Shown here piece by piece: positions 19,614 through 29,600 of a stretch of 64,000 nucleotides of DNA. Source of the stretch: a virus (taxonomy: Duplodnaviria; Caudoviricetes); IMG/VR virus record IMGVR_UViG_3300028833_000141, positions 1 to 64,000 of that record. The stretch is one strand, 5' to 3'. The position numbers and the translations under genes are program-made. Position 1 is the first letter of the stretch. The number at the start of each line of letters is the position of its first letter. The notes under the pieces are model-generated. The model had not been told where the DNA came from. It was given only the letters and a program-made list of their open reading frames with translations, and did no database searches.

Positions 19614-20087
19614 CTATTTTGTCTGCATATCTTTTTCTTTAAAATACAATACAACTCTTCCACCCAACATTTTGTAATAGGGTAGAGGGGTTGCTGAAAA
19701 AACATAATAATTTATTGCATCTGCTATAAATATAGCCACTATAGAAAGAGCCATCCATAATAAAGTGAATGGCAGACATATTATCCCTTTATAATTCAGA
19801 ATCATATTTGAATAATCCCACATTTTCGGAATTAAATTAGTATGTAATGCAAACTCTCCGATTACTAACTCGAAGAAAGTGATTAGTGCTGATCCACATA
19901 ATCCCTGTAAGAATAGATCAATATCCCAAGATATTTCATCGTTGATTTTGTCCAATATAACTATAGCCAATCCACCGCAAACGCCCATGATAGGAAAAGA
20001 ATAACCTCTGGCAGTAACCTCAATAGCTATATAAGAACAATAACCAACTAAAAATAAAACAATATTTTTATTTATATTAAGACTCAT
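19614..20087 (-). CDS. multi-pass membrane protein (CmpB/TMEM229-like)
   Basis: IEVTARG, ITFFELVIG, WDYS...N.KG.ICLPF motifs. Confidence 0.65.
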   Translation of the reverse strand: MSLNINKNIVLFLVGYCSYIAIEVTARGYSFPIMGVCGGLAIVILDKINDEISWDIDLFLQGLCGSALITFFELVIGEFALHTNLIPKMWDYSNMILNYKGIICLPFTLLWMALSIVAIFIADAINYYVFSATPLPYYKMLGGRVVLYFKEKDMQTK

Positions 20088-20847
20088 TGTTTACACCTGT
20101 CATTTGCGCTAACATATTTTTAAGTTCATCTGATTGATATTTTTCCGGTATTTCGATACCGTATTCGATAGCTTGAATTTTAGAAATCGATCTTAATGAA
20201 TTGATATAGAATTTTAAAGAATTGAAATAGGTAACATGAAATGTTTTAAATTGAATTGCTTGTTCAACAATCATATTCATATCTGCTAAAGAATACTCTT
20301 TACAATATTCATCATCAGCGTGGTATGAAATAGTTTCTGCTGTGCCTGACGCAAGCATAAACGAAATCGAAAGAAGATTAACCTGATCTTCAATTCTTAA
20401 AGAAAAATGATGGCTTTCGCCATCACTTAATACTAAATCAATACCATTAGTAATTGTCTTTTCGCATTTATTGCTCATTTCTTTTATTTTAGATTCTTTA
20501 GCAAAAGCAACAGTAACTTGCTCTTCTTGCGGTATTTCAGGTTCTTCTGGAGTTTGTTGTTCTTGTTCTTCTATATCTATCTGTTCATTATTTTCAATAG
20601 CTTCATATAAGCTGTCGTATTCTTCTTTTGAAATAGATATTATACTTGCCGACAAATATGGAACATCGTTTGAAATAATAGGTTTCATCCAATTATCTCT
20701 ATAATACGAATCATTTATTTGAATATATTCAGCAGTATTTTCATCGGCAACTAAAATGATTTTATGTTTAAGTTGATAGCGTCTAAAGTCATAACTTGTT
20801 GCTACCCCTATAAACACTAAATCTTTGATTATCTTAAAATAATTCAT
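20077..20847 (-). CDS. tail fibre assembly-like protein (DUF4376-like)
   Basis: HFSLRIEDQVNL, YHAD, HVTYFNSLK.YI; typical position after a DGR RT. Confidence 0.65.
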   Translation of the reverse strand: MNYFKIIKDLVFIGVATSYDFRRYQLKHKIILVADENTAEYIQINDSYYRDNWMKPIISNDVPYLSASIISISKEEYDSLYEAIENNEQIDIEEQEQQTPEEPEIPQEEQVTVAFAKESKIKEMSNKCEKTITNGIDLVLSDGESHHFSLRIEDQVNLLSISFMLASGTAETISYHADDEYCKEYSLADMNMIVEQAIQFKTFHVTYFNSLKFYINSLRSISKIQAIEYGIEIPEKYQSDELKNMLAQMTGVNNES

Positions 20848-20849
20848 AA

Positions 20850-22049
20850 TTAAGCCACCTTCCTTTTACATCGTTCTTTAGGATGTGATTTATAATATTC
20901 CCTCGTTAATTTATAACCACCGAATAATTCATTATATAATTTGATCATATTTCTTGCTGCATGGAAACTATGCGCAATTTTAGAATGCGCAAGCCAAGAC
21001 TGCATGGATGTATAAACATCATCATAAGTCATTTTGCCTTCTTTGACTTTGTTTACATATTTTTTCATTTTTCTACGCATACGGATGATTCCACCCTGAT
21101 CGAGTTTCTTAACAACTTTTCCGGTATCAGTTATATAATATTTAACTTTAAGAAACGCAAAACCTTTACTTGCCTTTGTAATGTATGTTTTCTTTTTATT
21201 AAAATGCATACCATACTTAGCTATTTGTTCATGTAATTCTGCCATTATCTTATTCAACACTTGTTTATCATTATGAATAATAATGCCATCATCCATATAA
21301 CGTATATAAAACTTGATTCCTAATTTATCTTTAATATAATGATCGAATTTATTAAGAACTGCTAAAGCCATGATTTGAGAAATCTGACTCCCTAAACATA
21401 TTCCAACATATTCATGGTTATATAATTTCTTTAGTTCAATTTCTCGTTTCTTTTCATCTTTAATTTGATTAATTTCTATCAATTTGTAAGATTCGATTAT
21501 TCCCATAATCAAATTTATAATTCTCGTATCTTCAAATAATTCCGTTAATACTCTATAGCATTGTTTATGAGGTATAGAATCAAAATAACTTTTTACATCA
21601 AACTTTAAAACGAACAGATCATTAGTTCTATATCTGCGTTTGGCTTTTTCAATAAATAGAGCCGTTCTTTGACGAGCAAAATCTACACCTTTACCTTTCG
21701 TACTCGCACCATTATCATATATAAGTTTTCCTTTAAGGGCTGGTAATAAAGCATAATCACAGATAACTCTTTGAATAACTCTATCTTCCATGCATATCGG
21801 TGTAATTTTTCTTTCTTTACCTCGTTCTCTTATAAAAATATACTTTTTATTTTGTATTTCAGGTATTAGACCAGATAAAATTATATCTATAGAATTATCA
21901 ATCTTGAAAATTGGTAGACAACTATAAGATTGAACGCTATATTTGTAATCAACTGATGCATGGCATTTCTTTAAAGATACGAACGCATTTTTATGTTCAA
22001 ATAATTCTTCTAATGTAATTTTACATTTCTGTTTAACTTTGGTTTTCAT
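20850..22049 (-). CDS. DGR reverse transcriptase
   Basis: GICLGSQISQ (DGR-type LGxxxSQ), YIRYMDD, FDVKSYFDSI; no group II intron X/En domains. Confidence 0.95.
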   Translation of the reverse strand: MKTKVKQKCKITLEELFEHKNAFVSLKKCHASVDYKYSVQSYSCLPIFKIDNSIDIILSGLIPEIQNKKYIFIRERGKERKITPICMEDRVIQRVICDYALLPALKGKLIYDNGASTKGKGVDFARQRTALFIEKAKRRYRTNDLFVLKFDVKSYFDSIPHKQCYRVLTELFEDTRIINLIMGIIESYKLIEINQIKDEKKREIELKKLYNHEYVGICLGSQISQIMALAVLNKFDHYIKDKLGIKFYIRYMDDGIIIHNDKQVLNKIMAELHEQIAKYGMHFNKKKTYITKASKGFAFLKVKYYITDTGKVVKKLDQGGIIRMRRKMKKYVNKVKEGKMTYDDVYTSMQSWLAHSKIAHSFHAARNMIKLYNELFGGYKLTREYYKSHPKERCKRKVA

Positions 22050-22425: not shown

Positions 22426-22561
22426 GAATCCGACCACGACACCATTGGTGTTGTTCGCGTTGTTGTTGTTGTTCGGATTGCCGTTATTGTTGACATTCAT
22501 AAAGTTCGTAGAGTTGGAGGCATTCGGTGAACGCTCCCACCAATTGTTCGCACGAACCCAA
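22426..22561 (-). repeat. DGR template repeat (TR)
   Basis: Minus strand reads WVRANNWWERSPNASNSTNFMNVNNNGNPNNNNNANNTNGVVVGF, rich in AAY codons. Confidence 0.96.
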
Positions 22562-22627: not shown

Positions 22628-23500
22628 TTAAAGTGCAGAGAATCTTTTCTTATCAGATTCTTGCACGGACAATAACATCTTAGTAGTTTGCTTTATGCAT
22701 TTAGATGTTCTTTTCTGATTTTTATTAGAAACATCATTATACATAAAGACTTCGCCAAGAGGCTTATTTAGTTTATACAATAAAGAAATTGCTGCTGAAA
22801 ATAAACCTTTTCGTCTTAAATAATCATCTTTCGTTTCAGGGTTTATATTATTAGCAGTATAAGCATTTGCAAAACACTCAATTGCCAAATCTTTTGCAAT
22901 CGATATTTCACAATCCCTTTCACTTTTAGGCAATTCCTTCCTGATCTTATTTATATATCTTGATAGTAAATATAAATTTAATAAAAATCTTGTTTTCTTG
23001 ATTTTATCGTAATTATATGCAAACATCCTTTTAAATTTGATCTTTGTTGATTTCTTTTCATCGAGAGCTTTAGCTAATCCGTATATTAATGCAGTTTCTT
23101 TATTGATGATTTCAGCTAAATACACGCGACTATGATAGGGTATTGGTTTAAGACTTGTTTCTGTAGAAGAACTTAAATTCCAATAATAATAAAAATATTT
23201 AATCAAATCATCAAATTCTGAGAGAACAGTTTTACATAAATCAAATCTTTTCTTATTTCTTTTCTTTTTAAATTCCGCATTGTTCTTATCATCTGCATCA
23301 TAGACACAATATAAATTATTAAGTTCTAAAATATCTTTATAAATATTATTTGCGATTTTCATAATTGGCTTCGAAATATCATCTTGATATTTCGGAGGAA
23401 TATTCCTCACTTTATTCTTAATTTCTTTATATACTCTATGATGATAATTATGAGAGTATTCAATAGTCGAAACTCTTCTATTATTCTTCAATATACTCAT
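22628..23500 (-). CDS. avd: Avd-like accessory protein, apparently two tandem four-helix domains
   Basis: Between target and TR; basic; MSILKNNR start and SDKKR end typical of Firmicutes Avd; 290 aa, about double the usual size. Confidence 0.75.
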   Translation of the reverse strand: MSILKNNRRVSTIEYSHNYHHRVYKEIKNKVRNIPPKYQDDISKPIMKIANNIYKDILELNNLYCVYDADDKNNAEFKKKRNKKRFDLCKTVLSEFDDLIKYFYYYWNLSSSTETSLKPIPYHSRVYLAEIINKETALIYGLAKALDEKKSTKIKFKRMFAYNYDKIKKTRFLLNLYLLSRYINKIRKELPKSERDCEISIAKDLAIECFANAYTANNINPETKDDYLRRKGLFSAAISLLYKLNKPLGEVFMYNDVSNKNQKRTSKCIKQTTKMLLSVQESDKKRFSAL

Positions 23501-23602: not shown

Positions 23603-26600
23603 TTAGATTGAGAAGCCGACCACGACACCATAGGCGTAGTTCGCGGCGCCGTAGTAGCCGTACGGATAGCCGTAAAAGAGGACATACATAAAGTAAGCAG
23701 AGTAGGAGGCATACGGTGAACGCTCCCACCAAAAGCTCGCACGAACCCAAAGACCACCATCATTAGCAGCAATTAAGTTGCCATCATTCAATCTCCAGAA
23801 TCCCATACGAGTATGTTTAGCTTTTGTTTCTGCGCTAACATAAATATACCCTATACTTGAATTACCAGTATTAATCCAAATATCACCTTCTTTAACAGAA
23901 CTACCTGTATATGCGGTAGGATCGGTATTCCCCGTATAGTATTCAGCATCTTCTGGAATAATAAACCCTGGAATCTTAACCCTTGATTTATCAGATGTGA
24001 AGAACGAAATAGCAGTACCTTCATCCGAATATGGCTGACTTGTCCAACCGCCAAGCTCTCTGTTCGCAGGAAGATATAACCTATCCTCAGAAGTAACAAT
24101 CTCAGAAGATTGATTACCTGCTGATGCGTTAATCTTAACTGTTTTAATGATCGATTGCAGCCAATACGGAAGTCCATTCCAAACAAAGGTATTGAGGAAT
24201 GTTCTCATTTCTGATTCATCCCAACCGCCAACATTTGTTGCAGTAGGATTCATTCTATGAAGCAAAGCTAAAGGATTATTTGCTATCCACGAACTGTTGG
24301 TTTTTGTACTGGTTTGTCCGGCTAATCTATAACGATCAGCACCAGCAAATTCCATACGCTGTTTCTGATGTGGGAAAGACGCAAGTTTGCGTGCGATTGT
24401 GTCTCCCAAATCATCGAACCAAACTTTGCACCAATGTATCCAGCCTTTGCCATAATAATCATGACCGCCATCACTGAATCTAACAGCACCTAATGCGAGT
24501 TTCATACTTCCGCTCGTATCTCTTGTTCTGATAAGCTCCGTAACAGTTATTGCATCATTATATGTATCAGCATTTAAGTTGAATGTATAAACAAAGAGAT
24601 GTGATGAACCTTTGGCATGTCTTAATACAACAATACCTCTCGTATCTGCATTTCCAACATTTACTGAGCGATCTCCCCATTGTATAGTAGGGTTGCTGCT
24701 ATATCTAAGTCTGAATCCCTCATTACCGCTCTCATCGAAACAAGAGACTAATGTTGCACCACTCTCATTTGTGTTCAAGAATTCAAAATCGATAGCCATA
24801 GTAAATGATGGCGAATCTTCATCAAATAAAGTAAAGTTGGTATCAAGATATTGAGTACCATCAAAATATCTATCTGTGACAATAGTGTTTTCCTGAACAT
24901 TATTAAATGTGAAATCAGACCCCATTGTAAATTCAAAGAAGTCTTTATCTTCAAAATAGCTACTTGCCATACCGGACTGGCATACTCCATACAGTTCTGC
25001 TGGACTCATATCACTTGCTTCTGTGCCAGCGATAGGACGTTCTTTTCTATCCCATACAGCGTATACATCAGTATCGCCTGTGATAAATCCTGTGCTCTTA
25101 TCCCACTGTAAGAATACATTATAGATATATGAACTCTCTTCATCCGTTCTTGTAGGAATATCGCCTGAGTAATCAACGCATTCACCATATTCTGCGGTCT
25201 GTGTTTCCAATGGCAGACCTGCTCTTGAATACCATGTTACCGTGTACTCTCTGACTGTTGTGCTATAGACCGCCTTAATAGATGTGGCTGCAAGAATCGC
25301 AGAATCTAAAGTATCCCATCCAGAGAAAGTATAATCATATTGTGCATCACTTTCATGTACAGGTGTAGAAATCCATCCTTCTGTAACCGGATTAGGTGGA
25401 TATGAACCTCTATCCACATACCATGTGAATAAAATAGTAGTTTCATCATCATTATAATAGGTTACAAGATACTGAGTAACAAGATTTCGTGGGTCATAAG
25501 TTACATCGAGATCAGCCCAATAATGAGTATAATTAAGAAGTTCCTGATTCCTTATCGCACCGCTGATATAAACATCACCACTCAGCAAAGAACTATTCAT
25601 AGCGATACATTTATTAAGTAAAACTGTATCTGGCAATGTCCAATCTATGCCGAGAATACGGATTGTTTGAAGTGTGTTTACTGCTGTCTGTAAGATCGAT
25701 AAGGCATCAATATTTGAATATTCGCATATAAAAGTTTCCAGATTTGCGTAGCTTGCTACTACTAAATCTGTAAGATAATTAATATTTCTAAAAGAAAGAG
25801 TTGAAATAGTTTCAGGCAAATGCGCTTTCTGCAATTTACCATTTGTTGCGAAAGATACGGCAGATATAGAAGTTCCTTCCGCATAGAAATTGAGTAAGTT
25901 AGCACAAGCTGTAAGGTTAACTGATCCCGTAAGGTTAGGGCAGTTTCTTACATCGAGCGTTTCAAGAAGAGTATTATTACCCATATTCAATGTAGTAAGG
26001 AATGAGTTTTCGTATCCTTCCGTAGTATTACCAATAACCAAAGTTCTTAATTTAGAAGCCTTTGAAAAATCATTATCATGTATATAACAAGCAGATAAAT
26101 CGTTAAGTGCTTGTATCCTGGATGCACAGTAAATAAGAATTGCCGTATCATCCATTTCTGTGAGAGTTGTTGTTATTTCGTATTCCTGTCCGGCTTTCGC
26201 TCTAATTTGTTGTGGGTTAGAAGAGTTTCCGTAACGGACAGTTAAATACATATCGGAATAAGGAACAATTCTAAGAGTATAATCAGGCTCAACAACTACA
26301 CCGGATTGTGGAGTATTACATCTGAACATAATCTGATCAGCGGTAATGTTTGTTCCGATATATTTTGTTCCAATATAAGCCTCTTGATCTCTCTCGAATT
26401 GCCTTCTTTGGTATTTCTTTCTACCATTCATCATTTCATTGAGGAATCTGATAGTGCCACCTTGATATGTTCTGAGATATTTTCTCTCAATATCAAGCCG
26501 CCATAATTCCTCTGGGAATTGTGATTGCCATGCATCAAATTCATTGATAAGAGAAGTTGCGCTCCAACAATTCAAACTTTCTCTACTTCTGTACATGGCT

Positions 26601-29600
26601 TCAAGTTGACTTCCCATGAGGTTACGGATTCTGCGCCAAAATACATTTTCAGCAGCATTATAGATAAAGCCGGAAGATGGATTTCCTTCTTGCTTATAAT
26701 CTATATCTTCATGTCCGTAAGTCATTGTAAGCTCACCTGAGTTATTACATTCTGTTACTTTTATGACCTATTAAAAAAATAGGCGAGAGAGGTTCTTCCA
26801 AAAGTGTCTTTACACTTGACCTCTCTTCTCGTGTTTCATTATTAAAAGGATTATTTCACGAGTTCAGACTATTGCATCATCCTAAGATGTTCCTTCGCTT
26901 AGTCGTTGTTCCTCCATATATAAGCAATAAAAAACTCATGCTTTGCACGAGATTAAAGATGAATATATGGTTGGAAGGCGTTGTCCGTCCTTTCGGAGTT
27001 TCGCCGTATATCAGAAGGAATTTTTTATACTTGGCACAAATAATCTATGCCAAGTGCCGTGTCAAAGTCATAACCCCATAAGTCGAAACGATAACCGTTA
27101 TTTATCGCTGCTTTGGCATTATTGATAGTATAATTACGAGCATCAGAACCCATTTCGGTAGCTTCGGCTTCTGTGATATAAGTTTTACCGTAGTGCCAGA
27201 ATGTATTCTTAGCTCTGTTATCAATCATTGTGTATCTTTCAGTAAACAGATACCAATAAAGCGGTGATTCAGATATAAACCAATCATCAATTTCTGATAC
27301 AAATTCAGCGTCAGTCGAAGTGATAACCCATTCATACATATCGCGCCATACCTGTTTTGACGCTTCTTGCTGTGCTTCGATCTCCGCACTTGAAATTGTC
27401 TCACCGTCTTTTGTTCCCATATCATATCTAAACTCAAACGAATCATCCCATGCTTCATATAGAGATTGGCGTTTCAGATTGTTCTCATTATTCCATTGTT
27501 CAGAAGTAATAGGGTAAACCATAGAAACACCCTCGTTAGGGTCATAAGTGATTTCATCATTTTCGTCAAGATAAACACCAGTCTGAAACCAACTGTTAGG
27601 AAGTGTATTATCTGATACCTCGACAACAAATTCTGCTAAATCTGTCGGATCATTTACACGAGTGTTATCAGTTTTCTTTGAATCTCCAATATTTCCAATT
27701 CCATAGAAATGCCAGCCTGTATCGGCAAATTCTCTATGAGTAGAAACATCAGGATCACTTTCTTTAATAAAGATAACGCAGTTGCAAAATTCCATTGAGT
27801 TTTTAACAAATGGATTTCGCTTCTGTCCTGGCGTTTTATAAGGAATATAATCATTAAATCTCTTTTGGAGAAGGGCATTATTCGCATTCTCAGAACTTGC
27901 GATATTCACCTTGATATTAAACCAATCATTAGGTACGGATGTACGAGTCAATGCGACTTTACCGCTACCATCTGAATATTGTGTCCCATCGCCAAGCGTA
28001 AGTTCTGTAATATATGTTGAGTCAAGCGGAATCTTACTTACGACTTGATGTTCGCCATCAAAGCCGAAGATAATATCAATATTTCTTCCTGCATAACCGT
28101 ATTCATTTGATGTAGTTCCTTCAATTTGTTATCCTATAAGCTTTTTATCTTATAGTTCTAATAGTTACAATTCCTATTAGTTCAGCATATCTTTTCACCC
28201 TCGTTATAGCGTTAGGTTTGCAGTTCGCTAATCTGCTCAAATCACCCTATATGTGATTGTGCTGCGGACTCGTGGGAAGATTATATTCTGCTATGCAGTT
28301 TCACTTCCTATGCGTTGCGTGTGACTATATTGTTACACATAGCCTTCCACTCTGATTTGCATTTCAGCATCCCAGATTTCTTCCGCAGTAAATATATCTA
28401 TATTTCTATAGATAGTGGGTAAGTTTTTCGCCCAGCATGATAACCATTGACGAATCTCCAATTATCTAAAATAGGATCACCATTTTTATGAATACACTCA
28501 ACATTCGTATATTTAACATAGTCCTTTTTATCGTTAGTAAAATGAGGACAATCGATTTTTATAACTTTCAAATCCGGACAAGCATTAGCAACCGATTCCG
28601 GTGTTAATGTATTATTCTCGTCATAGATTTGATTTCTCTCATATCTTGCAATCATTGTTTCTGCGTCTGGCGCATCAGCAATAAAGTTCTTCAAGATATT
28701 TGAATCGGTCAAAGACGAAGAGTATGCTTTCATTCTATAAATGTATACATCACAATCATCTGAGCCGATAGTGATAGGAACAGGCTGATACTGATAAAGT
28801 CTGTGTGCATCACTATAAAGCATTGGACGAGCAGCAACACCATCCTCGTAACTCATAATATATGATGTCGCATCTTCATTTTCCGTATCAAGCGGATTGA
28901 TATTAAACTCATATTCAATAATATCCTCTTCGCTGTAAGGAGTATAAAGATTATCAGTTGACGAGTACAGATACGCTTCGTGAGCGTTCATCTTTAATCC
29001 AACCTTTACATTATCCTCAGTAGGATAACAAGACAGGAATGTGGTCTGATTATCCCTGACATTCATTGTCTTGAATCTAACCTTAAATTCCGCACCGGAT
29101 TGTTTAGGATCATTAGCAAATAAGTTATAGCTAATATACGCCCTTGTTCCAGCCTTTACGCAGAAATATTGATTTCCGTCAGAATCAAGATTGTAACCAC
29201 CGTTATTCCAATCGAAGTTTTCAGATACAGACATTTTGACATTAGCATTATTAGCATCTTGCCAAAGCCTGTTTGCGCTACTATTAGACATTCCAACAGG
29301 GTTAAAATCAAATTCGAGATTTGCTGTGACAGGGGATATATCGTATCCAAGTTCTGCAACATCAACCTTGATGGTTACTGATGTAGCACCGCAAGTAATT
29401 GTCAATTCATGTAAAGCAATTTCTTCTGACTTGAACGCCCATGTATTAGCGTATGAAGATAATCTCAGAGTATTAACAATTTCACCGTCTACTGATAATG
29501 TAACAGATGGGGTAGTAGTTCTTGGATCAAAAACAACATAAGGAATTGTAACGGTATTATACTGTTTCGCTTCAACTTCACCATAATGATCGTATCTGTA

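What the first reader, a model, noticed from the sequence alone, without database searches (positions are those of the whole stretch)
22628..23500. Double-length, tandem two-domain Avd
The gene between target and TR is 290 aa, against about 120-130 aa for Bordetella-type Avd. By eye both halves follow the Avd four-helix pattern: IPPKY..IAN..LNNL..KR in the first and LPKSE..LAI..ANNI..RR..SDKKR in the second. Canonical Avd is a homopentamer, which a covalent dimer cannot reproduce symmetrically. This suggests a different oligomer or specialised subunits for RT versus RNA binding.
Basis: inference. Interest (0 to 1): 0.72.

Follow-up and report, generated by a model that had tools for sequence, protein, structure and literature searches.

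The report
Double-length tandem Avd in phage DGR
The helper protein of this gut phage's targeted-mutation system (a diversity-generating retroelement) is two diverged copies of the usual small Avd four-helix bundle in one chain, a conserved and apparently undescribed variant whose assembly cannot simply copy the textbook five-bundle Avd ring.

Summary
Window 22628-23500 (-) is a 290-aa ORF lying between the DGR target/VR and TR-RT.

It is not a one-off or a fused-gene artefact. An exhaustive HMMER search found 81 clusters, nearly all 260-290 aa and matching end to end. Three further distinct phage loci (23-31% identical proteins) have the same order: target, double gene, TR, RT.

Both halves are Avd-like:
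- The N-half and C-half profiles match each other (hhalign 98.3%, E 1.3e-14, all four helices; shuffled controls score 8-15 against 85.5).
- In a pLDDT-95 model, the C-half's four best PDB matches are the Avd/PF05635 family, including bAvd and Avd inside the DGR RNP (Z 12.6-16).
- The N-half's nearest Atlas structure is a bAvd cluster. In one relative, the N-half is the part that hits the PHROG Avd model.
- Both halves are basic and equally conserved.
- N-halves separate from C-halves on a quick tree, so a single old duplication or fusion is likely.

Five chains could still form C5 rings. Oligomer state and division of labour between the halves were not tested.

No paper describing this was found. 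Earlier notes of this scan (e1-2466801, e1-3325450) report the same architecture on other DNA. Verdict: a new variant of a known kind.

The parts
22628..23500 (-). Gene for the 290-aa double-length (tandem) Avd, stop codon included
   Evidence: ORF list. 81 homologous clusters, nearly all 260-290 aa and full-length. AF2 model pLDDT 95.1, pTM 0.91.
23063..23500 (-). N-terminal Avd-like domain (residues 1-146; helices 14-32, 36-65, 75-110, 122-146), with a longer helix 2/3 hairpin than the C-domain
   Evidence: hhalign against the C-half: 98.3%, E 1.3e-14, with controls. ESM Atlas structure search of residues 1-152: top hit is a PF22296 bAvd cluster, TM 0.63/0.76, 109 residues aligned. HH to the Pioen/Taranis single Avd 97% and to Shimadzu Avd 61.5%. 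phrog_30516 E 1.2e-4.
23012..23062 (-). Inter-domain linker (residues 147-163), non-helical in the model
   Evidence: DSSP string of the AF2 model.
22631..23011 (-). C-terminal Avd domain (residues 164-290; helices 164-189, 192-217, 224-253, 259-286)
   Evidence: VIA-align over 48,161 PDB chains: 2gsc_A Z 16.0, 2rld_A Z 13.8, 4dwl_A (bAvd) Z 12.8, 8ub7_B (Avd in the DGR RNP) Z 12.6. Foldseek 2gsc TMt 0.82-0.85. BFVD top hit 'Avd-like protein', TMt 0.83. phrog_3206 'Avd protein of DGR' E 8e-4.
23612..23750 (-). Variable repeat (VR) at the 3' end of the target gene
   Evidence: Direct repeats. TR/VR alignment. 24 of 25 mismatches lie at TR adenines.
22426..22561 (-). Template repeat (TR), just downstream of the tandem avd gene
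20850..22049 (-). DGR reverse transcriptase (399 aa)
   Evidence: Pfam RVT_1 E 9e-18 and phrog_1423 E 2e-66. 45-53% identical to the RTs of the other three tandem-Avd loci, against 35% or less to RTs paired with single Avds.
23603..26725 (-). Last ORF of the DGR target (tail-fibre type) carrying the VR; C-terminal DUF6273 (C-type-lectin-like) domain
   Evidence: Pfam DUF6273 E 1.8e-10. PMC10743442 describes DUF6273 as C-lectin-like.

Best explanation
The 290-aa protein is the accessory variability determinant (Avd) of this phage's DGR, built as two Avd-homologous four-helix bundles in one chain and joined by a linker of about 17 residues. The two-domain form arose once, before this phage family diversified. 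It came either from duplication of an avd gene or from fusion of two avd genes, and both halves have been kept under selection. By analogy with the Bordetella bRT-Avd-RNA complex, I infer that it binds the N-terminal extension of the cognate RT and the spacer RNA downstream of TR, and so positions the template-primer duplex for adenine-mutagenic cDNA synthesis. Because every chain contributes two non-equivalent bundles, the assembly must differ from the canonical ring of five identical bundles. It could be an even-numbered pseudo-ring, such as a trimer with six bundles, or five chains with ten bundles in two tiers. The two halves have probably divided the RT-contacting and RNA-contacting roles. 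Shown here: the ORF, its DGR context, the conserved family, the homology of the halves to each other and to Avd, and the fold. Inferred: RT and RNA binding, oligomer state and specialisation of the halves.
For: DGR context: target with VR, then this ORF, then TR, then RT, with adenine-specific TR/VR differences.

Conserved family: 81 clusters at E<1e-3, almost all 260-290 aa and aligned end to end. The same gene order occurs in L003/L004, L005 and L006, whose proteins are only 23-31% identical to this one.

Internal homology: N-half against C-half profile, 98.3%, E 1.3e-14, 117 columns across all four helices. One reversed and 20 shuffled controls score 8-15 against 85.5.

Fold: AF2 with 61 sequences gives pLDDT 95.1 and pTM 0.91, with 4+4 helices. 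The four best of 48,161 PDB chains for the C-half are 2gsc, 2rld, 4dwl (bAvd) and 8ub7_B (Avd in the DGR RNP), Z 16.0-12.6. The best Atlas structural neighbour of the N-half alone is a PF22296 bAvd cluster.

Sequence links to Avd: 25 of 61 members hit phrog_3206 'Avd protein of DGR' (best E 4.7e-14). In the window protein the C-half hits it; in the L005 relative the N-half hits it over profile positions 4-123. HH to the annotated Shimadzu Avd is 95.2% for the C-half and 61.5% for the N-half. HH to the Pioen/Taranis single Avd is 97% for the N-half and 88.8% for the C-half.

Both halves are basic across the family (pI 9.2 and 8.4; +9 and +16 net charge in this protein) and equally conserved (26% mean pairwise identity each).

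On a quick tree all N-halves fall on one side of a 96% SH-aLRT branch, and no protein's own halves are sisters.

RTs of the four tandem loci form a group at 45-53% identity.

Mechanistic analogy: bRT needs Avd, its NTE contacts two of the five protomers, and the Sp stem-loop contacts all five (bioRxiv 10.1101/2023.10.23.563531).
Against: No Pfam or NCBIfam Avd model (PF22296, PF05635) hits the protein or any of 61 relatives. A narrow bAvd profile gives no HH signal to either half. A family profile against PDB sequences finds nothing significant.

The window protein's own PHROG Avd hit is weak (E 8e-4) and covers only the C-half.

Four-helix bundles are a common fold, and Z of about 13 can arise for unrelated bundles (note).

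The N-half fold evidence rests on HH plus the Atlas's lower-quality model (pTM 0.57), because I could not fold the N-half alone.

There are no data on oligomer state or on RT or RNA binding.
Confidence: 0.82

Rival explanations
1. Only the C-terminal half is an Avd. The N-terminal half is an unrelated helical add-on domain, giving an Avd with an extension rather than a tandem.
For: The window protein hits the PHROG Avd model only with residues 179-288. In the PDB-wide structure search, the N-half's listed matches are generic helical proteins at Z of about 9.7. Another double-length DGR accessory noted by this scan (e1-5248127) was judged to be an Avd plus a foreign domain.
Against: hhalign of N against C gives 98.3%, E 1.3e-14 over all four helices, with clean controls. 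The N-half of the L005 relative hits phrog_3206 over positions 4-123. The N-half's nearest Atlas structure is a bAvd cluster. The N-half matches single-length Avds of Faecalibacterium and Roseburia phages.
Confidence: 0.06
2. The two-domain chain arose by fusion of two already diverged avd genes of different lineages (one phrog_30516-like, one phrog_3206-like), not by duplication within a single gene. The present function is the same; only the origin differs.
For: On the quick tree the single Avds of Clostridia phages (Pioen, Shimadzu, Fontainebleau) group with the N-halves, and bAvd groups with the C-halves. N-halves hit phrog_30516 and the window's C-half hits phrog_3206. One DGR with two separate avd genes is on record (Wu et al. 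2018, PMC5758913).
Against: The single Avds and bAvd sit on very long branches (1.4-4.1) whose placement is unreliable. The Pioen single Avd resembles the N-half only over its first two helices and the C-half over helices 2-4. That pattern fits duplication of one ancestral gene in which the outer termini stayed conserved. In L005 the N-half, not the C-half, hits phrog_3206.
Confidence: 0.3
3. The long ORF is an artefact: two adjacent avd genes joined by a sequencing or assembly error, or a gene unrelated to the DGR that happens to lie in the cassette.
For: None beyond the unusual length.
Against: 81 independent clusters from many samples have the same length and align end to end. The same position in the cassette is seen in four distinct loci. 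The model is confident across the linker, pLDDT 91-92.
Confidence: 0.02

Closest known systems
Avd of Bordetella phage BPP-1 (bAvd; PDB 4DWL; Avd chains of the bRT-Avd-RNA complex 8UB7; Pfam PF22296)
   Same: Same position in the cassette, between target/VR and TR-RT. Same up-down four-helix-bundle fold (C-half Z 12.8 and 12.6). Both are basic (pI 9.55 against 9.4 and 9.9 for the halves). Both hit phrog_3206.
   Different: bAvd has 128 aa and one bundle; this protein has 290 aa and two non-identical bundles. There is no detectable Pfam or HH sequence match to the bAvd family. The homopentamer of five identical bundles cannot be formed with all domains equivalent.
Single-length Avds of gut Clostridia phages: Roseburia phage Shimadzu orf23 'Avd' (136 aa), and the Faecalibacterium phage Pioen/Taranis 152-aa protein (phrog_30516, labelled 'unknown function')
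   Same: These are the closest sequence relatives with known genomes. HH is 95.2% (C-half) and 61.5% (N-half) to Shimadzu, and 97% (N-half) and 88.8% (C-half) to Pioen. They share the N-terminal M-S-x-x-K-x-x-R motif and sit in the same cassette position upstream of a related RT.
   Different: They have one bundle per chain. Their RTs are only 29-35% identical to those of the tandem loci, which are 45-53% identical among themselves.
PF05635 / S23p four-helix-bundle proteins (23S rRNA intervening-sequence proteins; PDB 2GSC Xcc0516, 2RLD BT_0352)
   Same: These are the best structural matches to the C-half (Z 16.0 and 13.8, rmsd 2.1 and 1.9 A).
   Different: They are not DGR-linked, have a single domain, and show no sequence-model match.

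Membership tests
DGR Avd (accessory variability determinant) | Encoded inside a DGR cassette, next to TR and RT | tested here: met
   The order is target/VR, this ORF, TR, RT in the window and in L003/L004, L005 and L006.
DGR Avd (accessory variability determinant) | Up-down four-helix-bundle fold like bAvd (4DWL) | tested here: met
   C-half: 4dwl_A Z 12.8, 8ub7_B Z 12.6, 2gsc_A Z 16.0, the top four of 48,161 chains. N-half: homologous to the C-half, and its nearest Atlas structure is a bAvd cluster, TM 0.63/0.76. The N-half was not folded alone, so its evidence is weaker.
DGR Avd (accessory variability determinant) | Match to curated Avd sequence models (Pfam PF22296 bAvd, PF05635; NCBIfam four-helix-bundle model) | tested here: not met
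   No hit for the protein or for any of 61 relatives. bAvd itself hits PF22296 at 7e-36.
DGR Avd (accessory variability determinant) | Match to the PHROG Avd family (phrog_3206) | tested here: met
   Window C-half E 8e-4. 25 of 61 relatives match, best E 4.7e-14. L005 N-half E 1.9e-4 over profile positions 4-123.
DGR Avd (accessory variability determinant) | Small single-bundle protein of about 110-150 aa ('of similar length', Wu et al. 2018) | tested here: not met
   290 aa with two bundles. The family is 260-290 aa. Wu et al. are quoted.
DGR Avd (accessory variability determinant) | Strongly basic protein (nucleic-acid binding) | tested here: met
   pI 9.37 (N-half) and 9.87 (C-half), net charge +9 and +16. 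Family means are pI 9.2 and 8.4. Binding itself was not tested.
DGR Avd (accessory variability determinant) | Homopentameric barrel | not testable with these tools
DGR Avd (accessory variability determinant) | Binds the RT and is required for cDNA synthesis and mutagenic retrohoming | not testable with these tools
   Needs biochemistry or genetics.

The most novel reading that the evidence does not exclude
The tandem Avd builds a non-canonical RT cofactor. This would be an assembly with an even number of bundles (such as a trimeric pseudo-hexamer) or a two-tier ten-bundle assembly, in which the N- and C-domains have taken over different jobs (RT NTE contact versus spacer-RNA stem-loop contact). 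That would define a second architectural class of DGR ribonucleoprotein tied to its own RT lineage.
Probability: 0.5. Interest if true: 0.7.

Novelty: new variant of a known kind. Interest (0 to 1): 0.55.

Why it matters
Avd is the obligatory partner of the DGR reverse transcriptase. All current mechanistic understanding rests on one structure, in which five identical Avd bundles hold the RT and the spacer RNA.

A naturally fused, asymmetric double Avd, conserved in a sizeable family of gut-phage DGRs with their own RT lineage, bears on two open points. It shows which features of that ring are really needed, and it offers a natural way to separate the RT-binding surface from the RNA-binding surface.

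It also matters for annotation. Pfam and NCBIfam miss this family entirely. PHROGs labels the related single-length Avd of Faecalibacterium phages (phrog_30516) as 'unknown function'. DGR surveys that require an Avd model hit or a typical length may therefore score these cassettes as lacking Avd.

Tried and rejected
- The word-indexed homologue search with the protein found nothing at near length. With the family profile it found only a 63-aa fragment among shorter proteins.
- tblastn of the protein and of two relatives against 50,697 GenBank phages gave no match.
- The viral-contig scan with the window protein, with P0001 and with the window RT gave no relatives.
- phmmer and a family profile against PDB sequences found nothing meaningful.
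- The single-sequence AF2 model was poor (pLDDT 61.9) and was discarded in favour of the alignment-based model.
- Foldseek on the whole model gave no E<=0.001 hit, although 2gsc had TMt 0.82-0.85.
- No PDB chain in the 50 rows shown matches both domains at once with a sensible rmsd; the rows that span both halves are 3o1h, 8wdf and 3i9w at rmsd 20-22.
- hhalign of either half against a narrow bAvd-family profile (Neff 2.3) gave no signal. bAvd is too divergent to serve as the bridge, and the Clostridia-phage Avds served instead.
- I considered the conserved roughly 250-aa ORF after the RT as a possible extra DGR accessory. I rejected this because it matches tail-fibre families phrog_1348 and DUF4376.
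- The careful tree did not finish in the time allowed, so a quick IQ-TREE was used.

Full report
**1. What is there**

Window 22628-23500 on the minus strand is an ATG-initiated ORF of 290 aa. It lies in a complete DGR cassette read on the minus strand:
- the target ORF 23603-26725, with a variable repeat at 23612-23750;
- the 290-aa ORF;
- the template repeat at 22426-22561;
- a reverse transcriptase at 20850-22049 (RVT_1 E 9e-18, phrog_1423 E 2e-66).

TR and VR differ at 25 of 132 aligned positions. Of these, 24 are at TR adenines and one is G>T. VR carries one extra codon. The gene in the 'avd slot' is about twice the length of BPP-1 Avd (128 aa). It is also twice the length of the Avds of the nearest cultured-phage DGRs (136-152 aa).

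**2. It is a real, conserved gene family**

Word-indexed searches and GenBank phages gave nothing. An exhaustive HMMER pass over 1.84 billion cluster representatives found 81 proteins at E<1e-3 and 31 at E<1e-10. Almost all are 260-290 aa and match from residue 1 to the end. The N-terminus (M-S-V-x-K-N-x-R..S..E-Y) is conserved, which confirms the start codon.

Three further distinct loci from IMG/VR contigs encode relatives only 23-31% identical to the window protein: L003/L004, L005 and L006. All show the same order, with a target ORF of more than 1,600 aa carrying a VR at its 3' end, then the double-length gene, then TR, then RT.

The four RTs are 45-53% identical to each other. They are 35% identical or less to RTs that sit next to single-length Avds. 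An assembly artefact, or a gene that merely lies in the cassette by chance, is excluded.

**3. Are both halves Avd?**

(a) Internal homology. I split the 61-sequence alignment A2 at residue 152/153 and compared the two profiles with hhalign. The result was probability 98.3%, E 1.3e-14, with 117 aligned columns covering all four helices of each half. A reversed C-half and twenty column-shuffled C-halves scored 8-15 against 85.5.

(b) Fold. AlphaFold2 with A2 gave pLDDT 95.1 and pTM 0.91, with four helices in each half and a linker of about 17 residues. I aligned this model to 48,161 PDB representatives without a Foldseek prefilter. The four best matches all cover residues 165-286, and all belong to the Avd/PF05635 group:

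| Chain | Description | Z |
|---|---|---|
| 2gsc_A | PF05635-type bundle, Xcc0516 | 16.0 |
| 2rld_A | PF05635-type bundle, BT_0352 | 13.8 |
| 4dwl_A | bAvd | 12.8 |
| 8ub7_B | Avd in the DGR ribonucleoprotein | 12.6 |

Foldseek agrees (2gsc TMt 0.82-0.85). The best BFVD hit is a 131-aa 'Avd-like protein' (TMt 0.83).

Instead, the ESM Atlas search restricted to residues 1-152 returned as its first structural neighbour a cluster that is 86% PF22296 bAvd. The scores were TM 0.63 by query and 0.76 by target, with 109 residues aligned over 10-147. A PF05635 cluster also appeared lower in that list.

(c) Sequence links.
- 25 of 61 family members hit phrog_3206 'Avd protein of DGR', best E 4.7e-14.
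- In the window protein the hit is on the C-half (E 8e-4).
- In the L005 relative it is the N-half that hits phrog_3206, over profile positions 4-123 (E 1.9e-4).
- The annotated Avd of Roseburia phage Shimadzu matches the C-half at 95.2% and the N-half at 61.5% (94 columns).
- The 152-aa cassette protein of Faecalibacterium phages Pioen and Taranis matches the N-half at 97% over its first two helices, and the C-half at 88.8% over helices 2-4.
- That 152-aa protein is phrog_30516 (E 5e-99). This explains the N-terminal PHROG hit of the window protein.

(d) Neither half is a decaying relic. Across the family both are basic (pI 9.2±1.0 and 8.4±1.4). In this protein the net charges are +9 and +16. 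Both halves are equally conserved, at 26% mean pairwise identity.

It is not met.

**4. Caveats**

No Pfam or NCBIfam model hits the family. A narrow bAvd profile gives no HH signal. The profile against PDB sequences is empty. Four-helix bundles are also common, and Z of about 13 alone is not proof (note). The case rests on convergence of several lines: cassette position, the family-level PHROG hits, HH links through Clostridia-phage Avds, the ranking of Avd/PF05635 structures at the very top, and the strong homology between the two halves.

**5. Origin**

On a quick maximum-likelihood tree of 61 N-halves, 61 C-halves and four single Avds, all N-halves lie on one side of a branch with 96% SH-aLRT support. 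No protein's own halves are sisters, and several subclades recur in both halves. So the two-domain state arose once, before the family diversified.

The tree cannot decide whether this was an internal duplication or a fusion of two avd genes. The single Avds fall with the N-halves and bAvd with the C-halves, but all of them sit on very long branches. Wu et al. (PMC5758913) recorded one DGR with two separate avd genes and described avd genes as 'of similar length'.

**6. How it probably works (inference)**

In the Bordetella system the RT is inactive without Avd. The RT's N-terminal extension contacts two of the five protomers. [quoted passage not shown] The spacer stem-loop is held by all five protomers, with bases inserted between them (bioRxiv 10.1101/2023.10.23.563531).

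I infer that the tandem protein does the same job for its own RT lineage. Any homo-oligomer of it contains an even number of bundles of two kinds. The options are an even-numbered pseudo-ring such as a trimer, or five chains with ten bundles in two tiers, or one ring decorated by the other domain.

The halves share 13% identity and carry different nearly invariant residues (R8 and R37 against N217 and R230), yet both are conserved. That fits subfunctionalisation. Neither stoichiometry nor binding could be tested here.

**7. Novelty**

Full-text searches for tandem, double, fused or duplicated Avd found no description. The searchable library is incomplete, so this is not proof of absence.

This scan's own earlier notes (e1-2466801 and e1-3325450, plus several first-reader notes) report the same double-length Avd in other phage genomes and reached the same reading. 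I reproduced the key tests independently on this locus.

I class it as a new variant of a known kind. It is of moderate to good interest for DGR mechanism, and of practical interest for annotation, since standard Avd models miss it.

Noticed in passing
window 23612-23750 vs 22426-22561: VR is one codon longer than TR, within the AAC-codon run. One of the 25 TR/VR differences is G>T rather than at an adenine. An earlier first-reader note (e1-5889826) says the same.
   Followed up: partly
window 20077-20847 (-); L004:7388-8134, L005:7535-8293, L006:7650-8408: The roughly 250-aa ORF immediately after the RT is conserved at 47% identity in all four tandem-Avd loci, more than the Avd itself. It matches tail-fibre families phrog_1348 (E 1.8e-14) and DUF4376. 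It is probably the next tail gene, so the DGR sits inside the tail-fibre module.
   Followed up: partly
L009:2068-2526, L010:2068-2526 (Faecalibacterium phages Pioen, Taranis): phrog_30516, labelled 'unknown function', is the single-length accessory protein in the avd slot of these DGRs. It is HH-related to both halves of the tandem Avd. This looks like an annotation gap for an Avd subfamily.
   Followed up: partly
window 20850-22049 (-) and the RTs of L004-L006: RTs paired with tandem Avds are 45-53% identical to each other but 35% or less to RTs paired with single Avds (Shimadzu, Pioen, Fontainebleau, Toutatis, bRT). This suggests co-inheritance of the tandem Avd with one RT lineage. Only nine RTs were compared.
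   Followed up: partly
window 19614-20087 (-): A 157-aa predicted protein matches Pfam PF06541 (ABC_trans_CmpB, E 2e-12) and phrog_20274. It lies just downstream of the tail and DGR block. Its function in a phage is unclear.
   Followed up: no
L008:2155-2709 (Acutalibacter phage Fontainebleau); L011:1889-2464 (phage FP_Toutatis): The ORFs in the avd slot of these two DGR phages are 184 and 191 aa, intermediate in length. Fontainebleau's is only weakly HH-related to the C-half (61.9%) and hits no PHROG. Toutatis's shows no HH signal. Avd length and sequence in Clostridia-phage DGRs appear more varied than 'similar length' suggests.
   Followed up: no
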